A stretch of 64,000 nucleotides of DNA, from the NCBI RefSeq assembly GCF_058153355.1, contig NZ_CM177019.1; one strand, written 5' to 3'. The notes under the pieces were generated by a model that saw nothing but the letters and a program-made list of their open reading frames with translations, made no database searches and was not told the origin of the DNA. Shown here in pieces: positions 1 through 8,901 of the stretch. Position 1 is the stretch's first letter, and each line of letters opens with the position of its first letter. A program made the translations under genes and the position numbers.

Positions 1-116
1 AATTTATCTCTACTTACTCAGAGTACCGAACTTTACGGAAAATTCCGTAAGACCGCACCTTTTTGTGACGCCGACTACACTATTTCAATGAGATAAGAGG
101 CAAAGACAGGAAAATT

Positions 117-878
117 ATGCCCGATCAAACACAACAATTTTCGTTCAAGGTGCTCACCATCAACATTCACAAAGGCTTTACCGCGTTTAACCGACGCTTC
201 ATTTTGCCGGAACTTCGCGACGCCGTGCGTACCGTCAGCGCCGATATTGTTTGCCTGCAGGAAGTGATGGGCGCGCACGAAGTTCATCCGCTGCATGTGG
301 AAAACTGGCCCGATACCTCGCACTACGAGTTTCTCGCCGACACCATGTGGAGCGATTTCGCCTACGGTCGCAATGCCGTATACCCGGAAGGGCATCACGG
401 CAACGCGGTTCTTTCACGTTATCCCATTGAACATTATGAGAATCGCGATGTTTCGGTCGATGGTGCGGAAAAGCGCGGCGTGCTCTACTGCCGCATTGTG
501 CCGCCGATGACCGGGAAAGCGATTCATGTGATGTGCGTACATCTGGGCCTGCGTGAGGCGCACCGTCAGGCGCAGCTTGCGATGCTCGCCGAATGGGTCA
601 ATGAGCTGCCGGACGGCGAACCGGTATTAGTGGCGGGTGATTTCAACGACTGGCGGCAAAAAGCTAATCATCCGTTAAAAATGCAGGCCGGGCTGGATGA
701 GATATTTACCCGCGCCCACGGACGCCCGGCGCGCACGTTTCCGGTGCAATTTCCTCTACTACGTCTGGACAGGATCTATGTCAAAAATGCCAGCGCCAGC
801 GCGCCAACCGCGTTGCCGCTGCGGACATGGCGACACCTTTCTGATCATGCCCCTTTAAGTGCGGAGATTCATTTATGA
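117..878 (+). CDS. ybhP: Endonuclease/exonuclease/phosphatase family protein
   Basis: 253 aa ORF; length and position upstream of clsB match the K-12 ybhP-clsB-ybhN operon; overlaps clsB start by 4 nt. Confidence 0.85.
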
Positions 879-2116
879 AATGTAGCTGGCGCGAAGGCAA
901 TAAGATCCAGTTGCTGGAAAACGGCGAGCAATATTATCCCGCGGTGTTTAAGGCGATTGGCGAGGCACAAGAACGCATCATTCTTGAAACGTTTATCTGG
1001 TTTGAGGATGACGTCGGCAAACAGCTGCATGCGGTACTACTGGCAGCAGCGCAACGCGGGGTAAAAGCGGAAGTCTTGCTGGATGGCTACGGTTCGCCGG
1101 ATCTCAGCGATGATTTTGTCAATGAACTGACGGCAGCTGGCGTGGTGTTCCGCTACTACGATCCCCGCCCTCGCCTTTTTGGTATGCGCACCAATGTGTT
1201 TCGCCGGATGCATCGCAAAATTGTGGTGATCGACGCACGTATCGCCTTTATTGGTGGGCTGAATTACTCCGCCGAGCATATGTCCAGCTACGGTCCAGAG
1301 GCTAAACAGGATTACGCAGTGCGCCTTGAAGGGCCGATTGTCGAAGATATTCTCCAGTTTGAACTGGAAAACCTGCCAGGACACAGCGCAGCACGACGCT
1401 GGTGGCGACGTCATCACAAAGCGGAAGAAAACCGCCAGCCGGGAGAAGCGCAGGTATTATTGGTTTGGCGCGATAACGAAGAACATCGTGATGATATCGA
1501 ACGCCACTATCTGAAAATGCTCACTCAGGCGCGTCGGGAAGTGATTATCGCCAACGCCTACTTCTTTCCTGGCTATCGATTTTTGCACGCCTTACGCAAA
1601 GCGGCACGGCGCGGGGTGCGGATCAAGCTGATCATTCAGGGCGAACCGGATATGCCCATTGTCAGAGTCGGCGCGCGTTTACTGTACAACTATCTGGTTA
1701 AAGGCGGCGTTCAGGTTTTTGAGTACCGCCGCCGCCCGCTCCACGGCAAAGTAGCATTGATGGACGATCACTGGGCGACAGTAGGGTCCAGTAATCTCGA
1801 TCCGCTCAGTTTGTCGCTAAATCTCGAAGCAAACGTCATCATTCACGATCGTCATTTTAACCAGACGCTACGCGATAATCTGAACGGCATCATCGCCGCC
1901 GACTGTCAACAAGTGGATGAATCCATGCTGCCGAAACGCACCTGGTGGAACCTGACCAAAAGCGTGCTGGCATTCCATTTTTTGCGCCACTTCCCGGCGC
2001 TAGTGGGCTGGCTTCCGGCGCACACGCCGCGTCTGGCGCAAGTTGATCCCCCCGCACAACCGACAATGGAAACTCAGGATCGGATAGAAACTGAAAATAC
2101 GGGGGTAAAACCCTGA
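875..2116 (+). CDS. clsB: Cardiolipin synthase B (phospholipase D family)
   Basis: 413 aa; two HxK(x4)D-type motifs visible ([17 protein letters not shown]); synteny. Confidence 0.9.
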
Positions 2117-3072
2117 TGAGTAAATCACGCCCGCGCTGGCGCTTAGCAAAGAAGATCCTCACCTGGCTGTTTTTTATCGCAGTGATTGTGTTGCTGGTGA
2201 TCTACGCCAAAAAGGTAGACTGGGAAGAGGTCTGGAAGGTTATCCGCGATTACAATCGCGTTGCGTTGCTCAGTGCGATTGGGCTGGTGGTCGTCAGCTA
2301 TCTGATATATGGCTGCTACGACCTGCTCGCCCGTTTCTACTGCGGTCACAAACTGGCGAAGCGCCAGGTGATGCTGGTGTCGTTTATCTGCTACGCCTTC
2401 AATCTGACGCTCAGTACCTGGGTCGGCGGCATTGGTATGCGCTATCGTTTGTACTCCCGGCTAGGGTTACCGGGCAGCACTATTACGCGGATTTTCTCGC
2501 TCAGTATTACCACCAACTGGCTGGGCTATATTTTGCTGGCCGGGATTATCTTTACCGCAGGCGTGGTGGAGCTGCCGGATCACTGGTATGTCGATCAAAC
2601 TACGCTGCGTATTCTCGGCATTGGCTTACTGCTGATTATCGCGGTTTATTTGTGGTTTTGCGCTTTCGCGAAGCACCGCCATATGACCATCAAAGGGCAA
2701 AAGCTGGTGCTGCCTTCATGGAAATTCGCCCTCGCCCAGATGCTGATTTCCAGCGTTAACTGGATGGTAATGGGAGCGATTATCTGGCTGTTGCTGGGTC
2801 AAAACGTGAACTATTTCTTTGTACTGGGCGTATTACTGGTAAGCAGTATTGCCGGGGTAATTGTGCATATTCCGGCGGGAATTGGTGTACTGGAAGCGGT
2901 GTTTATCGCGCTACTGGCTGGGGAGCATACCTCCAAAGGCACAATTATCGCCGCCCTGCTCGCTTACCGTGTGCTGTATTACTTTATCCCGCTGCTGCTG
3001 GCGCTGATCTGTTACCTGTTGCTGGAAAGCCAGGCGAAGAAGCTACGAGCGAAAAATGAAGCGGTAATGTGA
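2116..3072 (+). CDS. ybhN: Inner membrane protein YbhN (UPF0104 family)
   Basis: 318 aa, multiple hydrophobic segments; start overlaps clsB stop; synteny. Confidence 0.85.
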   Translation: MSKSRPRWRLAKKILTWLFFIAVIVLLVIYAKKVDWEEVWKVIRDYNRVALLSAIGLVVVSYLIYGCYDLLARFYCGHKLAKRQVMLVSFICYAFNLTLSTWVGGIGMRYRLYSRLGLPGSTITRIFSLSITTNWLGYILLAGIIFTAGVVELPDHWYVDQTTLRILGIGLLLIIAVYLWFCAFAKHRHMTIKGQKLVLPSWKFALAQMLISSVNWMVMGAIIWLLLGQNVNYFFVLGVLLVSSIAGVIVHIPAGIGVLEAVFIALLAGEHTSKGTIIAALLAYRVLYYFIPLLLALICYLLLESQAKKLRAKNEAVM

Positions 3073-3075
3073 AGT

Positions 3076-3339
3076 TCAGTTAAGTTCTTTTGGTTTAAGT
3101 TCGGGATGCTGTTTATAGATGGGGTTCATGATATCGATTAACATGCGCCCCATAATTTCCCCGACGGCGGAACGATAAATATTAAGCTCAGATTCATCGC
3201 AAGCTTGCTGAACATATAATACTGACGCATCTAATTGAGCACCAATATTGAGCATTAATGCGCTGATATCTGCTGCCAGAGTCTTATCTTTGAACATTTT
3301 ATAAACCTTTTCAATTTCTAAACATAAAAGATACTGCAT
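3076..3339 (-). CDS. Hypothetical protein, 87 aa (AT-rich; may be the 3' part of a frameshifted gene with 3311..3679)
   Basis: ORF overlapping the end of the 122-aa ORF by 29 nt in another frame. Confidence 0.35.
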   Translation of the reverse strand: MQYLLCLEIEKVYKMFKDKTLAADISALMLNIGAQLDASVLYVQQACDESELNIYRSAVGEIMGRMLIDIMNPIYKQHPELKPKELN

Positions 3340-3679
3340 GTTCCATTTTATTACCTACGGGATAATTATCTTTTATTGCATATGTAAAATCACTTGTTTT
3401 GGTTATTAAGTTTTTTATAGCATCATCAAGATACTCAGGAACTAATGATTCAATATTTTCAAGATCACAACCAAGATCAATTATCTCTATTAGCTCTTTA
3501 TCACAATCATTTTTGTGTAAAAGCCTGGAAATAAAAGGTCTGAAAACTAGTAGTTCAGATTCATCTATAGTTATCGTGCCTTCTTTCAAGGAATGTAACA
3601 CTCCTGAAAGCAGTATAGCCATAAATTTATCCATATATTTATTATCGATGGTACAAACTAACTGCATGATATTCTCCAC
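3311..3679 (-). CDS. Hypothetical acidic protein, 122 aa (AT-rich, likely accessory)
   Basis: ORF in AT-rich segment between ybhN and the ybhM-like gene; no recognisable motif. Confidence 0.4.
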   Translation of the reverse strand: MENIMQLVCTIDNKYMDKFMAILLSGVLHSLKEGTITIDESELLVFRPFISRLLHKNDCDKELIEIIDLGCDLENIESLVPEYLDDAIKNLITKTSDFTYAIKDNYPVGNKMEHAVSFMFRN

Positions 3680-3725
3680 TATTGTATTTCAGATACTACA
3701 TTTCTAAACGTAAGTCGAAAGTGCG

Positions 3726-4439
3726 TTAAATATGAAACCGCGTATGCCTTTGCCAGACAAGCGTTATCGCTATTGCTGCAAGAATCCCAAAGAAGCTGAT
3801 AAAATAGTAATAGAGTGTTAATGCACCTGTAACAGCGCAACGAACCGGACTCCACAACTCTTCGCTATGGCATTTTCCTGCCAGTTCAAGGAGCTTATTT
3901 CGTCCATGCGAGATAATGCCTGACCATAAGACAATCATTAAGCAACTTATTACCCAAACAGGCCGTTCACTCATTAATGCGGTATTTACGCTGATCACCA
4001 GAGTCAACCCTGTCAACGTCATCATAATGATGAAACGGTGAGAACCAGGATCAACATTAAATAATAAACCGGCCTGCATACTGATTAAAAACATCGCGCC
4101 CGCAGTGCTGAACACAAGGATAATGGCAGATACAGGAACTAAACTAGCAACGACAATCGCCACCAAAGAGATTAAAAACAGATACATTACGCCTGCGATG
4201 GCGGCATTTATCTTGTTGATATCCTTACTTAAACCATACATACAAAGTAATAATAATCCTATGGCGACATACATTTGCGGTGAATCATATTTTGTTGCCG
4301 TAATTTCGAGATGCTTAGCTCCCCAGGCCAGTCCTGCGGTTGCCACCAAACCGACAGCGGTAATGAGCCATATGCCGTTTAATATCCTGGCCTCGTACTG
4401 AAAATCATTAGTTATGTTTTTTGATGAGTACGATTTCAT
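3726..4439 (-). CDS. ybhM: BAX inhibitor-1/YccA-like inner membrane protein
   Basis: 237 aa, polytopic membrane protein; length matches K-12 YbhM; position between ybhN and ybhL. Confidence 0.7.
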   Translation of the reverse strand: MKSYSSKNITNDFQYEARILNGIWLITAVGLVATAGLAWGAKHLEITATKYDSPQMYVAIGLLLLCMYGLSKDINKINAAIAGVMYLFLISLVAIVVASLVPVSAIILVFSTAGAMFLISMQAGLLFNVDPGSHRFIIMMTLTGLTLVISVNTALMSERPVWVISCLMIVLWSGIISHGRNKLLELAGKCHSEELWSPVRCAVTGALTLYYYFISFFGILAAIAITLVWQRHTRFHI

Positions 4440-4507
4440 TATTTTTATATCCTTAAGTTGAATATCAATATCTATTGCAATTAACGCAAAAAACTCATCA
4501 ATTCACG

Positions 4508-5248
4508 CTACCACACTAAACCATTAATAAAGTCAAGAACCGTTACAGCAAGTCTAAAAAGGACGCTTAGGATACAGAAATAGAGTGTTATTGCCCCTGC
4601 AACAATACAGCGAAGAACACCTGAAAATTCAGAGTTGTCGGCAACACGGATCAAATCTTCCAGTGTTGTTGCTTCACAGGCAGCCGTAACGCCCCAGATA
4701 ACGACAGTCAAAATACTCGCTAACCATACGGAAAAACTGCTGGTAAGAATCAGGTTAACAACAAAAGCAATACTCAAACCACAGAAGATATATAAACATA
4801 ACTGTCTAACTGGTGGGATAGCCCTATTAATACAACAGCAAATCAGCGCCATTGTGGCAAACATCCCTCCCGTAATTCCCATTACCGTCACTATGCTTGA
4901 AAAGGTAAAAAGTCTGGAGAAGAGAAAGCCATTAAGTAGGATTATTAGCAGATAGACCAGACATGCGCCTGATACCTCGAGCCTTTTCAGGGCATCGTTT
5001 AACCAGAAACCAATTATTATCAGCGCAGATAAAGCGAAGACAAACGCGCCTGGAGATTCTAGTGAAGCAACCCAATGCAAGTGCTGAAATATCCAGGCAC
5101 AGCCTGCCGTAGCCCATACTCCAGCAGCTGTTAACCACCAAATGAGGAACAGCATTTTGCTGAGCGAAGCGCTTTTTTGCTGTAATTGAGTAGCAGTGGA
5201 TCGTCTGTTCAAATGCGTTATCTGCCCCTGAAATTGCGTAGTGGACAT
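4508..5248 (-). CDS. BAX inhibitor-1-like membrane protein, additional paralogue
   Basis: 246 aa; same hydrophobic architecture and similar C-terminal region to the adjacent 237-aa protein; lower GC than flanking core genes. Confidence 0.6.
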   Translation of the reverse strand: MSTTQFQGQITHLNRRSTATQLQQKSASLSKMLFLIWWLTAAGVWATAGCAWIFQHLHWVASLESPGAFVFALSALIIIGFWLNDALKRLEVSGACLVYLLIILLNGFLFSRLFTFSSIVTVMGITGGMFATMALICCCINRAIPPVRQLCLYIFCGLSIAFVVNLILTSSFSVWLASILTVVIWGVTAACEATTLEDLIRVADNSEFSGVLRCIVAGAITLYFCILSVLFRLAVTVLDFINGLVW

Positions 5249-5357
5249 AGTCTGGCATTTGCGGCGATTCAGTTCTCATGTAAATGAGCGGAATAGTCTT
5301 TATAAAATCCGAAAAAAAATCCCGACACATGGCCGGGATATTGATGGTGAAAAAGAA

Positions 5358-6062
5358 TTAACGGCGGTTGCCGAAGATCCTCAACAACATCAGGAACAGG
5401 TTGATGAAGTCCAGATATAAGGTTAACGCGCCAAGAATGGAATATTTGCGCAGGTTTGACGTGTCGCGGGTATCAATCTGCTCACCCATATTTTTCAATT
5501 TCTGAGTGTCATATGCCGTCAATCCGACAAAGACAATCACGCCGATGTAGGTGACTGCCCACATCAATGCTTCGCTTTTCAGCCAGAAGTTGACCAGCGA
5601 TGCCAGCACAATGCCGATTAACGCCATAAACAGCATATTGCCAAAGCCGCTTAGATCACGTTTGGTGGTGTAACCGTACAGGCTCATTGCGCCGAACATC
5701 CCGGCAGTAACGACGAAAGTACTGGCAATCGAGGCGGCGGTATAGACAATGAAAATACTGGAAAGCGTAAGACCCGTCAGCGCCGAATAAAGCATAAAGA
5801 GCATCGTCGTTACACCTGCGCTCAACTTTTGAATCATCGCTGATAACACAATAACCAATGCTAATTGCGCGATGATCAGACCGATTAAAAAGACACGGTT
5901 AGTGAACAACAGCTCCATCACGGCCGCGGAATTAGCCGCATACCAGGCAACAAATGCTGTCAGCAACAAGCCAACGGTCATCCAGCCATAGACTTGCGCC
6001 ATATAAGTTTGCAAGCCAGCCCGGGGTTGTACAATTGAATCAGAACGTGGGAATCTGTCCAT
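5358..6062 (-). CDS. ybhL: BAX inhibitor-1 family inner membrane protein
   Basis: 234 aa; synteny next to moaE. Confidence 0.85.
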   Translation of the reverse strand: MDRFPRSDSIVQPRAGLQTYMAQVYGWMTVGLLLTAFVAWYAANSAAVMELLFTNRVFLIGLIIAQLALVIVLSAMIQKLSAGVTTMLFMLYSALTGLTLSSIFIVYTAASIASTFVVTAGMFGAMSLYGYTTKRDLSGFGNMLFMALIGIVLASLVNFWLKSEALMWAVTYIGVIVFVGLTAYDTQKLKNMGEQIDTRDTSNLRKYSILGALTLYLDFINLFLMLLRIFGNRR

Positions 6063-6197
6063 GACGATCTCCTGAAGATATAAGGAATATCTTAAGGATA
6101 CTGCAAATGATGAGGCTGTGCATCGACGCAGCGTAAACGCATATACTGAGCGGTGAAATTGCCGGACGCAGCGGTGCCTTATCCGGCTAACAAAAAA

Positions 6198-6650
6198 CTA
6201 CCAGCGTTTTGCTGCCTGCTGATCGCTCTCCCGGGCTTCAACCCAGCGGTCGCCTTCCGGCGTGGCTTCGCGCTTCCAGAACGGTGCGCGGGTTTTGAGA
6301 TAGTCCATAATAAACTGCCCGGCTTCAAACGCACTGCTGCGATGCGCACTGGTGACACCGACAAAAACGATTTCATCGCCCGGCCATAATTCCCCGATGC
6401 GGTGAATCACAGTGACGCGCCCCAGCGGCCAGCGGTTACGCGCTTCATCGACAATTTCTGCCAGTGCTTTTTCAGTCATCCCCGGATAGTGTTCGAGGGT
6501 TAATGCTTTGACGCTGTCGCCCAGGTTATGGTTGCGCACCTTACCGGTAAAGGTGACTACCGCACCGTCTTCGTCACGCTCAGCCAGCCACGGGTACTCT
6601 TCTCCTACACTGAACGGCTGCGGGCCGACAACAATTTTGGTTTCTGCCAT
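6198..6650 (-). CDS. moaE: Molybdopterin synthase catalytic subunit
   Basis: 150 aa, last gene of moaABCDE; recognised sequence. Confidence 0.9.
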   Translation of the reverse strand: MAETKIVVGPQPFSVGEEYPWLAERDEDGAVVTFTGKVRNHNLGDSVKALTLEHYPGMTEKALAEIVDEARNRWPLGRVTVIHRIGELWPGDEIVFVGVTSAHRSSAFEAGQFIMDYLKTRAPFWKREATPEGDRWVEARESDQQAAKRW

Positions 6651-6651
6651 T

Positions 6652-6897
6652 TTAACCTCCGGTCACCGGCGGGAAGAAAGCCACTTCGTCGCCGTCAGTC
6701 AGCGGATGGTCAAAACTCACCAGCGTCTGGTTGACGGCAGCCAGCAATTTGCCATCTTCCAGCGCCAGCGCCCAGCGATCGCTCTGCGCAGCCAGATGTT
6801 GGCGTAACGCTTCAACGGTTGGGAAATCCGCAGCCACTTCGCTTGCATCTGTTCCCACCAACTCGCGCACCTGGGCGAAAAAAAGAACTTTAATCAT
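6652..6897 (-). CDS. moaD: Molybdopterin synthase sulfur-carrier subunit
   Basis: 81 aa from MIKVLFFAQ... ending in GG (ubiquitin-like carrier); ORF-track start is an upstream in-frame extension. Confidence 0.85.
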
Positions 6898-7375
6898 CCG
6901 CTTCCACCTTAAAGTCACCTGACTTGCCGCCGCTCTTCGCCAGCAAACGTACCGGACCAATTACCATATCTTTTTGCACCGCTTTGCACATGTCATAAAT
7001 GGTCAGCGCCGCCACCGAGGCCGCGGTTAACGCTTCCATTTCAACGCCGGTTTTCCCGGTCAGGCGGCATAAGGTTTCTATACGCACCCGATTGTGCTCC
7101 GGCTCGGCCTGCAAATTGACTTCAACTTTACTGAGCATCAGCGGATGACAAAGCGGGATCAAATCCCATGTGCGTTTTGCTGCCTGAATACCGGCAATAC
7201 GCGCAGTGGCAAATACGTCGCCTTTGTGGTGGCGACCATCAATGATCATCGCCAGCGTCTCGCTGCGCATGGTGACAAAGGCTTCGGCGCGCGCTTCACG
7301 CACGGTTTCCGCTTTGGCGGAAACATCCACCATGTGCGCTTCGCCAGCGGCGTTGATATGAGTCAGTTGCAACAT
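6890..7375 (-). CDS. moaC: Cyclic pyranopterin monophosphate synthase
   Basis: 161 aa; recognised MoaC sequence. Confidence 0.9.
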
Positions 7376-7377
7376 AC

Positions 7378-7890
7378 TTATTTCTTCAAATGTGGATGGA
7401 AATTACACGGACGCGTACGGGCATCCAGCTGCGGTGCGATGATATTTTCCCAGGCGGTACGGCACGCTTTGGTCGAACCCGGCATGGCGAAAATCAGCGT
7501 TTTGTTAGCGACGCCCGCTACCGCACGAGATTGCAACGTTGAGGTGCCAATCTCTTCGAACGACAACATACGGAACACTTCACCAAAACCTTCAACTTCA
7601 CGGTCGAACAGCGGCAGCAGTGCTTCAGGTGCCTGATCGCCTTCGGTCAGACCAGTACCACCCGTAATCAACACCACTTGTACATCGTCGCTGGCGATCC
7701 ACGCAGATACCTGAGCGCGAATGGCATAGCGGTTTTCTTTCACAATGGCTTTATCGACAACGTGATGGCCCGCGTCCTGCGCCGAGTCGCGCAGATAGTG
7801 ACCGGAGGTATCGTCTTCTTCACCGCGACGATTAGAAACCGTAAGAATAGCAATACGGGTCGGGATAAATTCAGTGCTTACCTGACTCAT
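7378..7890 (-). CDS. moaB: Molybdenum cofactor biosynthesis protein B
   Basis: 170 aa MogA/MoaB fold protein; synteny. Confidence 0.9.
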
Positions 7891-7911
7891 CTGATCTCTC
7901 CTTTTGACGTT

Positions 7912-8901
7912 TTAGCCGCCAATGTACGATAAGTTTTGCGTAATACCGGTGTTGTTTTGATGCAGGAAATGGGTCTGTTTCTTCTCCCGCAGCGCCGCTG
8001 AAATACGCGCTTCCAGCGCCTGTTGCTGGGTATCGTCTTCCAGCAGATCGCGCAGGTTAACGCCGCCTTCACCGAACAGGCAGAGATGGAGTTTACCAAT
8101 GGAGGAGACGCGCAGGCGGTTGCAAGTGGCGCAGAAGTCTTTTTCATACGGCATGATAAGGCCAATCTCTCCGGCGTAATCCGGATGACAAAAGACTTGC
8201 GCGGGACCGTCGCTGCGTTGACGTAATTGGTGGATCCAGCCGCGACGCAGTAACTCGTCACGCAGAACCTGACCAGAGATGTGATGCTTACGGAAGAGCT
8301 CGCTGCCCTCGCCCGTTTCCATCAGTTCGATGAAACGCAGCTGGATGGGGCGATGCTGGATCCAGTTCAGAAAGGTGTCGAGTTGGTGATGATTAACATC
8401 ACGCATCAGCACGGTATTGACTTTGACCTTCTCAAAACCGGCCTCAAATGCAGCATCGATCCCTGCCATGACCTGATTGAATTTATCCTGTCCGGTAATA
8501 GCATGAAACTGGCGAGCGTCGAGGCTATCGACACTCACGTTGATACCAGTAAGACCAGCATCACGCCAGTTCGCTACATCTCGTTCCAGACGGTAACCAT
8601 TGGTGGTGACCGCAATCTGGCGGATAGCGTCGTTTTCTCGCACAGCGGCGATGATATCGGTAAAGTCGCGACGCAAAGACGGCTCTCCGCCCGTCAGACG
8701 GACTTTTTCGGTGCCCAGACTGGCGAAGGCGCGCGTAACCCGGCGAATTTCATCGACGGTCAGAAAGCCTTTATTGGTGACGCCGCTCGGTTTGTAGCCA
8801 TCCGGCAGGCAGTAGGTGCAACGGAAGTTGCACACATCGGTAATCGACAGGCGCAAGTAGTAAAACTTACGCGCAAATGCATCAGTCAGTTGTGAAGCCA
8901 T
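7912..8901 (-). CDS. moaA: GTP 3',8-cyclase (radical SAM)
   Basis: 329 aa from MASQLTDAF...; CxxxCxxC radical-SAM motif (CNFRCTYC); ORF-track start at 8982 is an upstream extension. Confidence 0.9.

What the first reader, a model, noticed from the sequence alone, without database searches (positions are those of the whole stretch)
3076..3679. Small AT-rich two-ORF cassette between ybhN and the ybhM-like gene
Two minus-strand ORFs (122 aa, acidic; 87 aa) overlap by 29 nt in different frames, in DNA much more AT-rich than the flanking genes. I do not recall coding sequence here in K-12. It could be a small acquired cassette (for example a toxin-immunity or orphan immunity pair) or a single ~200-aa gene with a frameshift.
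Basis: partly seen in the sequence, partly recalled or inferred. Interest (0 to 1): 0.45.

Follow-up and report, generated by a model that had tools for sequence, protein, structure and literature searches.

The report
Two orphan toxin-immunity genes beside ybhN
The AT-rich stretch between ybhN and ybhM holds two real, separate small genes that look like "orphan" immunity proteins against toxins injected by rival bacteria, carried without any toxin gene; this is a known kind of thing, though neither protein family had an assigned role.

Summary
The two minus-strand ORFs are real, but the 29-nt overlap comes from taking the longest ORFs. With the Shine-Dalgarno-backed starts the genes are 3311-3667 (118 aa, Pfam DUF3969) and 3076-3297 (73 aa, no family), 13 nt apart. 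The segment is 33% GC against about 54% in the flanks. It is absent from K-12 and present in under 1% of complete E. coli genomes. Both genes show dN/dS of about 0.2-0.3.

They are not one frameshifted gene and not a toxin-immunity pair. Each occurs without the other, and E. coli 042 has two other genes between them, one of them a SUKH-4 immunity gene.

Outside Escherichia, 23 of 42 DUF3969 loci have a conserved, unannotated ~88-aa C-terminal domain immediately upstream. That domain is carried by Rhs proteins, by a CdiA with a PT-VENN domain, or by short ORFs. DUF3969 is also found fused to Barstar and CdiI_4 domains.

The 73-aa family directly follows Rhs proteins that end in a shared six-cysteine tip in two lineages. 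Elsewhere it is a single-gene integron cassette.

Best reading: two independent orphan immunity genes in a hypervariable array downstream of ybhL. This is a new member of a known kind, of moderate interest.

The parts
3311..3667 (-). DUF3969-family gene (118 aa, pI 4.7, 29% GC): a predicted cytosolic orphan immunity protein.
   Evidence: Pfam PF13108 at 56.9 bits against a cut-off of 25. The ATG has a GGAG 6-9 nt upstream. AF2 gives pLDDT 95 for a helical bundle. dN/dS is 0.2-0.3 between alleles. Homologues lie directly downstream of a conserved toxin C-terminal domain in 23 of 42 loci.
3076..3297 (-). 73-aa gene with no Pfam or NCBIfam family: a helical hairpin and candidate orphan immunity protein. 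Its stop codon lies 3 nt from the ybhN stop.
   Evidence: The profile search gave 88 homologues, most of 71-82 aa and the majority exactly 73 aa. AF2 gives pLDDT 96 with helices 5-32 and 35-63. dN/dS is 0.19-0.40 between well-diverged alleles. Homologues sit 10-56 nt behind Rhs proteins with a shared six-Cys tip (L008/L055, L073). Elsewhere they are integron cassettes.
3298..3310 (-). 13-nt spacer between the two genes, containing AAAGG upstream of the 73-aa start.
   Evidence: Read from the sequence. Same gene model as RefSeq in L001.
3668..3725 (-). 58-nt spacer between the stop of the ybhM-like gene and the DUF3969 start. It has a Shine-Dalgarno GGAG and no terminator-like hairpin. A sigma-70-like match at 3708-3681 is no better than chance.
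3091..3734 (.). Segment with no counterpart in K-12. It replaces 26 nt of the K-12 ybhM-ybhN spacer. 33% GC.
   Evidence: blastn of the window against MG1655. GC.
3073..3090 (-). Last five codons plus the stop of the 73-aa gene. K-12 retains this stretch (17 of 18 nt) in its empty site.
3726..4439 (-). Upstream neighbour on the same strand: a BI-1/YccA-family membrane protein (ybhM-like, 237 aa, 91% nt identity to K-12 ybhM). It is part of the same variable array.
4508..5248 (-). An additional BI-1-family paralogue (246 aa), absent from K-12 and present in 753 of 5426 complete E. coli genomes. Same array.

Best explanation
The interval holds two independent, intact orphan immunity genes of polymorphic-toxin systems. 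They sit at the distal end of a same-strand, hypervariable gene array that runs from ybhL towards ybhN.

The 118-aa DUF3969 protein is a cytosolic helical bundle. Its family is the cognate immunity partner of a conserved ~88-aa C-terminal toxin domain that has no Pfam family. Consensus of that domain: IKNVYxSIKxAPxYPxGFKxxQNGTxKNxVNNxxVLxxLRxIESGxWxKVYKDGYDAxGNKVSIHYFQSQSGKVFDVKVKxGWSN. The domain is delivered on Rhs proteins, on CdiA, and probably on other carriers.

The 73-aa helical-hairpin protein belongs to a family that follows Rhs proteins ending in a small six-cysteine tip.

In this genome no toxin gene or toxin remnant accompanies either gene. The inferred role is to bind and neutralise the corresponding toxin domains when competitors inject them, giving resistance without weaponry.

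Shown: gene models, family membership, purifying selection, accessory distribution, and toxin adjacency and modularity in other genomes.

Inferred: binding and neutralisation, that these diverged Escherichia alleles still recognise a circulating toxin, and expression, probably by read-through from the upstream BI-1 gene because no terminator intervenes.
For: Gene models and selection:
- Pfam DUF3969 hit, E 2.5e-15.
- dN/dS 0.2-0.3 for both genes across alleles, with dS up to 0.9.
- Confident complete folds.

DUF3969 as an immunity family:
- In 42 loci from Bacillota, Treponema, Proteus, Providencia, Xenorhabdus and others, 23 have the ~88-aa domain ending 3-115 nt upstream on the same strand. 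Of these, 15 are full-length and 8 are 3' fragments, as in displaced orphan modules.
- The domain is 50-80% identical across phyla.
- It sits at the C-terminus of Rhs proteins (L014, L024, L039), of a CdiA with Fil_haemagg_2 + PT-VENN (L030), and of an Rhs-core fragment (L023).
- DUF3969 is fused to Barstar, to CdiI_4 + DUF4176, to pentapeptide repeats and to HEAT domains in single predicted proteins.
- The toxin domain also occurs on Moraxella bovis CdiA plasmids, and as a decayed module with DUF3969 beside rhsE/ydcD in 604 of 5426 E. coli genomes.

The 73-aa family:
- It lies directly after Rhs in L008/L055 and, independently, in L073. The Rhs tips share C..VK..CI..CSD..LPT..F.NC.N.C.AA.GC.
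- In L006 a new Rhs tip has displaced the old one, leaving the old tip's last ~75 nt plus the 73-aa gene downstream.

Local context:
- E. coli 042 carries a SUKH-4 immunity gene (27.2 bits, cut-off 25.5) and another small ORF between the two genes.
- There is no toxin-domain match anywhere in the 64-kb window or in the Escherichia loci examined.
Against: - No experiment exists, and no paper mentions DUF3969.
- The Escherichia ybhM-linked DUF3969 lineage is only about 30-44% identical to toxin-linked homologues, so its specificity is unknown.
- No fold match to any solved immunity protein, only generic helical bundles.
- For the 73-aa family, only two independent lineages show direct Rhs adjacency. 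Most homologues sit in integron cassettes or ordinary chromosomal contexts without a toxin.
- The six-Cys tip is very small for a toxin.
- There is no promoter evidence: promoter-like sites are no more frequent than in shuffles.
- DNA at 29-33% GC may be H-NS-silenced in Escherichia (established knowledge, not tested here).
Confidence: 0.65

Rival explanations
1. The small proteins have a housekeeping or accessory role unrelated to interbacterial toxins. Examples would be partners or regulators of the adjacent BI-1/YccA membrane proteins, or small stress proteins. On this view the toxin adjacency elsewhere reflects only part of each family's biology. This applies mainly to the 73-aa protein.
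For: - In Escherichia both genes always follow BI-1 paralogues on the same strand.
- Most 73-aa homologues have no toxin next to them. They follow an MFS transporter (L009/L010), an FMN reductase (L075-77), or sit in integron cassettes.
Against: - DUF3969 outside Escherichia is not linked to BI-1 genes but to the toxin domain in 23 of 42 loci.
- The strain-to-strain presence, absence and shuffling of these genes fits accessory defence genes better than partners of ybhM.
- K-12 keeps ybhM without them.
Confidence: 0.2
2. The two ORFs form a self-contained toxin-antitoxin or toxin-immunity module in which one product is the toxin.
For: The genes are adjacent, co-oriented, small and AT-rich. They are next to each other in about 30 of the 33 complete E. 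coli genomes that carry both.
Against: - Five genomes have DUF3969 without the 73-aa gene, and one has the 73-aa gene alone.
- 042 separates them by two genes.
- There are no PADLOC, Pfam or NCBIfam toxin hits.
- Each family has a different toxin partner elsewhere.
- Outside Escherichia the two families are never seen together.
Confidence: 0.04
3. A single ~200-aa gene broken by a frameshift.
For: The longest-ORF models overlap by 29 nt in different frames.
Against: - No homologue of either part is fused to the other among 328 DUF3969 representatives or 88 hits for the 73-aa family.
- Each has its own start with a Shine-Dalgarno sequence.
- Each models as a complete domain.
- All allelic lineages keep the same two-gene structure.
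Confidence: 0.01
4. Decaying, non-functional remnant of an old insertion: ORFs retained by chance.
For: - The cassette is rare (under 1% of genomes).
- It is AT-rich with no detectable promoter.
- Most E. coli appear to have deleted it, leaving an 18-nt scar.
Against: - Both reading frames are intact in every lineage examined, despite dS up to 0.9.
- dN/dS is 0.2-0.3.
- The family hallmark motif GC(E/D)LE(D/N)IESLxPE is retained.
Confidence: 0.08

Closest known systems
Orphan cdiI / rhsI immunity genes and displaced 'orphan' CT-immunity modules of CDI and Rhs systems (Poole et al. 2011, PMC3150448; Koskiniemi et al. 2014, PMC3967940)
   Same: Small cytosolic proteins whose homologues lie immediately downstream of a modular C-terminal toxin domain on CdiA or Rhs. 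Homologous loci show 3' toxin fragments plus an intact immunity gene.
   Different: Here the genes are not in or next to any cdi or rhs locus and carry no toxin fragment. They sit between housekeeping genes behind BI-1 paralogues. Neither the toxin domains nor the immunity families are characterised.
Immunity gene arrays built by sequential effector displacement in Vibrio cholerae T6SS clusters (Kirchberger et al. 2017, PMC5361080)
   Same: Strain-variable tandem arrays of immunity genes without their effectors.
   Different: The Vibrio arrays lie at the 3' end of T6SS effector loci. This array is not attached to any secretion-system or effector gene.
Acquired interbacterial defence (AID) clusters of Bacteroidales and SUKH-type polyimmunity loci (Ross et al. 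2019; Zhang et al. 2011/2012; from my own knowledge, not read here)
   Same: Toxin-less collections of immunity genes that would protect against competitors. A SUKH-4 gene occupies the same islet in E. coli 042.
   Different: AID clusters are on mobile elements with recombinases. No integrase, attC or IS is intrinsic to this islet, and it holds only 1-4 small genes.
Pfam PF13108 (DUF3969)
   Same: The 118-aa protein is a bona fide member: 56.9 bits against a 25-bit cut-off, covering 84 of 106 profile positions.
   Different: The family has no assigned function. The Escherichia lineage is an outlier, at most 39% identical to non-Escherichia members.
Integron gene cassettes
   Same: Homologues of the 73-aa gene are single-gene cassettes bounded by attC sites in at least three environmental arrays (L011/L012, L058, L062).
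   Different: There is no attC-like site in window 2800-5400 and no integron integrase nearby.

Membership tests
Pfam PF13108 (DUF3969) | Score above the curated gathering threshold over most of the profile. | tested here: met
   56.9 bits against 25. Residues 14-97 match profile positions 4-87 of 106. The conserved G22, P44, GC(D/E)LE..ESL.P motif is present.
Polymorphic-toxin immunity protein (DUF3969 gene) | Family members are encoded immediately downstream of, and co-oriented with, a toxin C-terminal domain in many unrelated genomes. | tested here: met
   23 of 42 loci have the same ~88-aa domain ending 3-115 nt upstream.
Polymorphic-toxin immunity protein (DUF3969 gene) | The partner toxin domain is modular, joined to different delivery or trafficking domains. 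| tested here: met
   The domain is found on Rhs (L014, L024, L039, L023), on CdiA with PT-VENN (L030), on short stand-alone ORFs (Xenorhabdus, L027, L028), and on Moraxella filamentous haemagglutinin plasmids.
Polymorphic-toxin immunity protein (DUF3969 gene) | A cognate toxin gene or toxin fragment is adjacent in THIS locus. | tested here: not met
   The toxin HMM and tblastn find nothing in the 64-kb window or in the Escherichia ybhN-ybhM loci. The gene is therefore an orphan.
Polymorphic-toxin immunity protein (both genes) | The protein binds and neutralises the toxin domain. | not testable with these tools
   Needs co-expression rescue, pull-down, or a complex prediction.
Polymorphic-toxin immunity protein (73-aa gene) | Recurrent position directly downstream of a shared toxin C-terminal domain. 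| tested here: inconclusive
   Met in two independent lineages (L008/L055 and L073, with a shared six-Cys tip), plus a displacement footprint in L006. About ten other contexts have no toxin.
Integron gene cassette (73-aa gene) | A single ORF bounded by attC recombination sites (RYYYAAC ... GTTRRRY imperfect palindromes). | tested here: not met
   Homologues in L011/L012, L058 and L062 are flanked by attC sites. No such site occurs in window 2800-5400.
Type II toxin-antitoxin or known anti-phage defence system | A match of either product to a known toxin, antitoxin or defence-protein model. | tested here: not met
   No PADLOC, NCBIfam or significant PHROG hit.
Solved immunity-protein folds (Im7/Im9, CdiI, Barstar, SUKH and others) | Significant structural or sequence similarity to a solved immunity protein. 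| tested here: not met

The most novel reading that the evidence does not exclude
The whole ybhL-ybhN interval may be a fixed chromosomal hotspot in Escherichia where immunity genes accumulate and are lost, with no toxin, integrase or secretion-system gene attached. On this reading the tandem, low-GC BI-1/YccA paralogues (including K-12 ybhM, function unknown) would be the membrane-protein immunity members of the same array, acting against membrane-targeting toxins. DUF3969, SUKH-4, the 152-aa ORF and the 73-aa protein would be its cytosolic members. In addition, DUF3969 and the 73-aa family would each define a new toxin-immunity pair: an ~88-aa C-terminal domain and a six-Cys Rhs tip, both absent from Pfam.
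Probability: 0.15. Interest if true: 0.65.

Novelty: new member of a known kind. Interest (0 to 1): 0.4.

Why it matters
- It gives a testable function to DUF3969, a Pfam family that no paper in the searched library mentions.
- It points to the unannotated toxin domain that DUF3969 probably neutralises. That domain is carried on Rhs and CdiA proteins in both Gram-positive and Gram-negative bacteria, and survives as a decayed module in about 11% of complete E. coli genomes.
- It links a previously family-less 73-aa protein both to Rhs toxins and to integron cassettes.
- It flags the ybhL-ybhN interval as a strain-variable islet of toxin-less immunity genes. This is relevant to who can resist whom in gut Escherichia populations.
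- The concept of orphan immunity genes is well established, so this adds members and a locus rather than a new principle.

Tried and rejected
- **Frameshifted single gene:** rejected. No fused homologue exists and each gene has its own ribosome-binding site.
- **Toxin-antitoxin or defence system:** no PADLOC, NCBIfam or PHROG hits.
- **Profile-to-PDB sequence searches:** tried for DUF3969, the 73-aa family and the toxin domain. Nothing convincing.
- **Pfam and NCBIfam on the ~88-aa toxin domain and the six-Cys tip:** no family.
- **The 'DUF3969 + Fic' fusion (P0009):** this turned out to be a metagenome scaffold chimera containing Ns.
- **The search for related loci with the broad DUF3969 alignments:** failed twice because there was no conserved stretch. 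A 10-sequence subset worked.
- **Small-ORF arrays around 73-aa homologues:** first read as polyimmunity loci, then re-interpreted as integron cassette arrays after attC sites were found.
- **Mobility signatures in the window:** no attC, no meaningful flanking repeats, no IS, no RNA family.
- **Promoter scan:** no enrichment over shuffles.
- **Literature:** nothing on DUF3969, and nothing on ybhM in connection with immunity.

Full report
**Layout**

The first 7.4 kb of the window reads as follows:

| Feature | Coordinates | Strand |
|---|---|---|
| ybhP | 117-878 | + |
| clsB | 875-2116 | + |
| ybhN | 2116-3072 | + |
| the two flagged ORFs | 3076-3679 | - |
| BI-1/YccA gene, ybhM-like, 237 aa | 3726-4439 | - |
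| second BI-1 paralogue, 246 aa | 4508-5248 | - |
| ybhL | 5358-6062 | - |
| moaE, moaD, moaC | 6198-7375 | - |

**Observation check**

- The ORFs at 3311-3679 (122 aa) and 3076-3339 (87 aa) exist.
- The region is strongly AT-rich. GC is 26-32% in 200-nt windows and 33% over 3091-3734, against 54% for ybhP-ybhN.
- The larger product is acidic, pI 4.7.
- The reported 29-nt overlap comes from longest-ORF calling.
  - The ATG at 3667 follows GGAGAA by 6 nt, and the upstream GTG is part of that Shine-Dalgarno sequence.
  - The ATG at 3297 is the start shared by all 73-aa homologues.
  - RefSeq uses the same starts in near-identical strains.
- The real genes are therefore 118 aa (3311-3667) and 73 aa (3076-3297), 13 nt apart.
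- Only 5 of 2000 shuffles of this segment give an open frame of 118 codons or more.

**Comparison with other E. coli**

- Against MG1655 the window aligns at 1-3090, 3735-4471 and 5313-8000.
- Positions 3091-3734 replace 26 nt of K-12's 35-nt ybhM-ybhN spacer.
- K-12 still carries 17 of the 18 nt that encode the last five codons and the stop of the 73-aa gene. The empty site therefore looks like a deletion scar.
- The 73-aa gene is found in 35 of 5426 complete E. coli genomes and this DUF3969 lineage in 38. Every copy is at this locus.
- Allelic lineages are deeply diverged, with nucleotide identities of 99, 97.5, 91 and 74%.
- dS reaches 0.9 while dN/dS stays at 0.2-0.3 for both genes. They are real genes under purifying selection.
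- The interval is hypervariable:
  - K-12 has only ybhM.
  - Some strains have up to three extra BI-1 paralogues.
  - F9792 lacks ybhM.
  - Two strains have IS2 between the two small genes.
  - GF4-3 has DUF3969 without the 73-aa gene.
  - 2020CK-00188 has the 73-aa gene without DUF3969.
  - E. coli 042 has, in order, DUF3969, a 152-aa ORF, a SUKH-4 immunity protein and the 73-aa gene. The SUKH-4 hit is 27.2 bits against a 25.5-bit cut-off.
- The two genes are therefore separable units. They are not a bicistronic module and not one broken gene.

**The 118-aa protein (DUF3969)**

- It is a Pfam DUF3969 member, E 2.5e-15.
- No paper in the library mentions the family.
- It has no NCBIfam, PADLOC or significant PHROG match.
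- A profile search of 1.84 billion representatives found 328 relatives, mostly stand-alone proteins of about 110 aa.
- Longer predicted proteins fuse DUF3969 to Barstar, to DUF4176 + CdiI_4, to pentapeptide repeats or to HEAT repeats. Several of these (Barstar, CdiI_4) are immunity-type domains.
- AF2 gives a confident model, pLDDT 95, of a helical bundle capped by two short strands. It has no specific solved relative.

A genome scan returned 42 DUF3969 loci from Bacillota, Treponema, Proteus, Providencia, Xenorhabdus, Entomohabitans and E. albertii.

- In 23 of them the ORF immediately upstream on the same strand ends in one and the same ~88-aa domain, 3-115 nt before the DUF3969 match. Fifteen copies are full-length and eight are 3' fragments.
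- The domain is 50-80% identical across phyla.
- It forms the extreme C-terminus of several carriers:
  - 1966-aa Rhs proteins (L014, L024);
  - another Rhs protein (L039);
  - an Rhs-core fragment (L023);
  - a 1650-aa CdiA with haemagglutinin repeats and a PT-VENN pre-toxin domain in Proteus cibi (L030);
  - short ORFs in Xenorhabdus and other Enterobacterales.
- It has no Pfam, NCBIfam or PDB relative.
- It also occurs on Moraxella bovis filamentous-haemagglutinin plasmids and on a Pseudomonas DUF637 protein.
- Together with a DUF3969 gene, it forms a decayed module beside rhsE/ydcD in 604 of 5426 E. coli genomes. In the copies examined the toxin has a premature stop and the immunity gene is frameshifted.

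This is the standard signature of a polymorphic toxin and its immunity protein. The window copy has no toxin or toxin fragment nearby. It is only about 30-44% identical to toxin-linked homologues.

**The 73-aa protein**

- It has no family in any library searched.
- A profile search found 88 relatives, most of 71-82 aa and the majority exactly 73 aa, at 40-60% identity. They come mainly from environmental metagenomes and methanotrophs.
- AF2 predicts a helical hairpin with pLDDT 96. Fold matches are generic.
- Contexts fall into three groups:
  1. **Directly behind Rhs proteins.**
     - Methylomicrobium L008/L055 has a 56-nt gap, and the independent contig L073 has a 10-nt gap.
     - The C-terminal tips share a six-cysteine motif, C..VK..CI..CSD..LPT..F.NC.N.C.AA.GC.
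     - In L006 the same Rhs core carries a different tip, and the last ~75 nt of the old tip plus the 73-aa gene persist downstream. That is a displacement footprint.
     - In L072 an Rhs gene and IS elements lie upstream.
  2. **Single-gene integron cassettes.** These are bounded by attC sites in L011/L012, L058 and L062.
  3. **Assorted chromosomal or mobile contexts without a toxin**.
- Immunity function is therefore plausible but less secure than for DUF3969.

**Mechanism proposed**

- Both products lack signal peptides and membrane segments. I read them as cytosolic proteins that bind and block their cognate toxin domains when these are delivered by competitors' Rhs/T6SS or CDI systems.
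- In this genome they are orphans: resistance without the weapon.
- No terminator-like hairpin separates them from the upstream BI-1 gene, so co-transcription is possible. Promoter-like matches are no more frequent than chance.
- Binding, current specificity and expression are all inferred, not shown.

**Known analogues and novelty**

- The closest analogues are:
  - orphan cdiI/rhsI modules (PMC3150448, PMC3967940);
  - Vibrio cholerae immunity arrays (PMC5361080);
  - toxin-less polyimmunity or AID clusters (from my own knowledge).
- This locus differs in three ways. It is detached from any toxin, secretion or recombinase gene. It lies behind tandem BI-1 paralogues. The families and their toxin partners are uncharacterised.
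- I rate it a new member of a known kind, of moderate interest.

**Host**

- The exact proteins are deposited as E. coli and the cassette is also found in E. fergusonii.
- However, the ybhP-ybhN flank is at most 97.9% identical to any complete E. coli genome.

Noticed in passing
window 3726-5248; loci L001, L066, L068: Downstream of ybhL there is a strain-variable tandem series of 1-4 divergent, lower-GC (42-44%) BI-1/YccA-family membrane proteins. K-12 has only ybhM. The 246-aa paralogue at 4508-5248 is in 753 of 5426 complete E. coli genomes, mostly at about 92% identity. Their position at the head of an immunity-gene islet raises the idea that they are membrane immunity proteins.
   Followed up: partly
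window 3073-3090 versus K-12 (L065, reverse complement 3960-3977): K-12's 35-nt ybhM-ybhN spacer retains 17 of the 18 nt that encode the last five codons and stop of the 73-aa gene. The common 'empty' state therefore looks like a deletion scar rather than a never-occupied site.
   Followed up: partly
L069 6971-7583, L070, L071 (E. coli rhsE/ydcD region and small plasmids): 604 of 5426 complete E. coli genomes carry a decayed orphan module between RHS elements and ISAs1 copies. It consists of the ~88-aa toxin domain and a DUF3969 gene. In the copies examined the conserved Trp codon of the toxin is a stop and the immunity gene is frameshifted. The same module is on two ~7-kb E. coli plasmids.
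   Followed up: partly
L014, L024, L030, L039, L027, L028, L042 and others (alignment A7): A highly conserved ~88-aa C-terminal toxin-like domain with no Pfam, NCBIfam or PDB relative. It is shared by Rhs, CdiA and short ORFs from Bacillota to Enterobacterales and Moraxella. Its activity is unknown. The conserved K, R, E, H and Y residues suggest a small nuclease, which is an inference only.
   Followed up: partly
L011 5783-6403, L058 2934-3355, L062 3460-4087: Homologues of the 73-aa gene are single-gene integron cassettes flanked by clear attC sites (GCCTAAC...GTTAGGC type) within long cassette arrays.
   Followed up: yes
window 3314-3327 and 3700-3713: A 14-nt direct repeat, ATTTCTAAAC(A/G)TAA, brackets the DUF3969 gene. 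One copy is its last codons and the other lies just downstream of the ybhM-like stop. It is present only in this allele lineage and may be chance.
   Followed up: partly
L005 2825-3226 (protein P0009): The apparent DUF3969 + Fic fusion protein in the database is a metagenome scaffold chimera. A 150-nt E. coli DUF3969 fragment is joined across Ns to a Fic gene.
   Followed up: yes
window 100-3070: The ybhP-clsB-ybhN flank is at most 97.9% identical to any of 5426 complete E. coli genomes (95.9% to K-12), although identical proteins are deposited as E. coli. The host is a divergent Escherichia lineage, or this flank is itself a recombinant import.
   Followed up: partly
L004 2430-2888 (E. coli 042) and L068 3430-3888: A 152-aa ORF with no family in Pfam, NCBIfam or PHROGs sits between DUF3969 and the SUKH-4 gene in the same islet. 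It is another candidate orphan immunity gene.
   Followed up: partly
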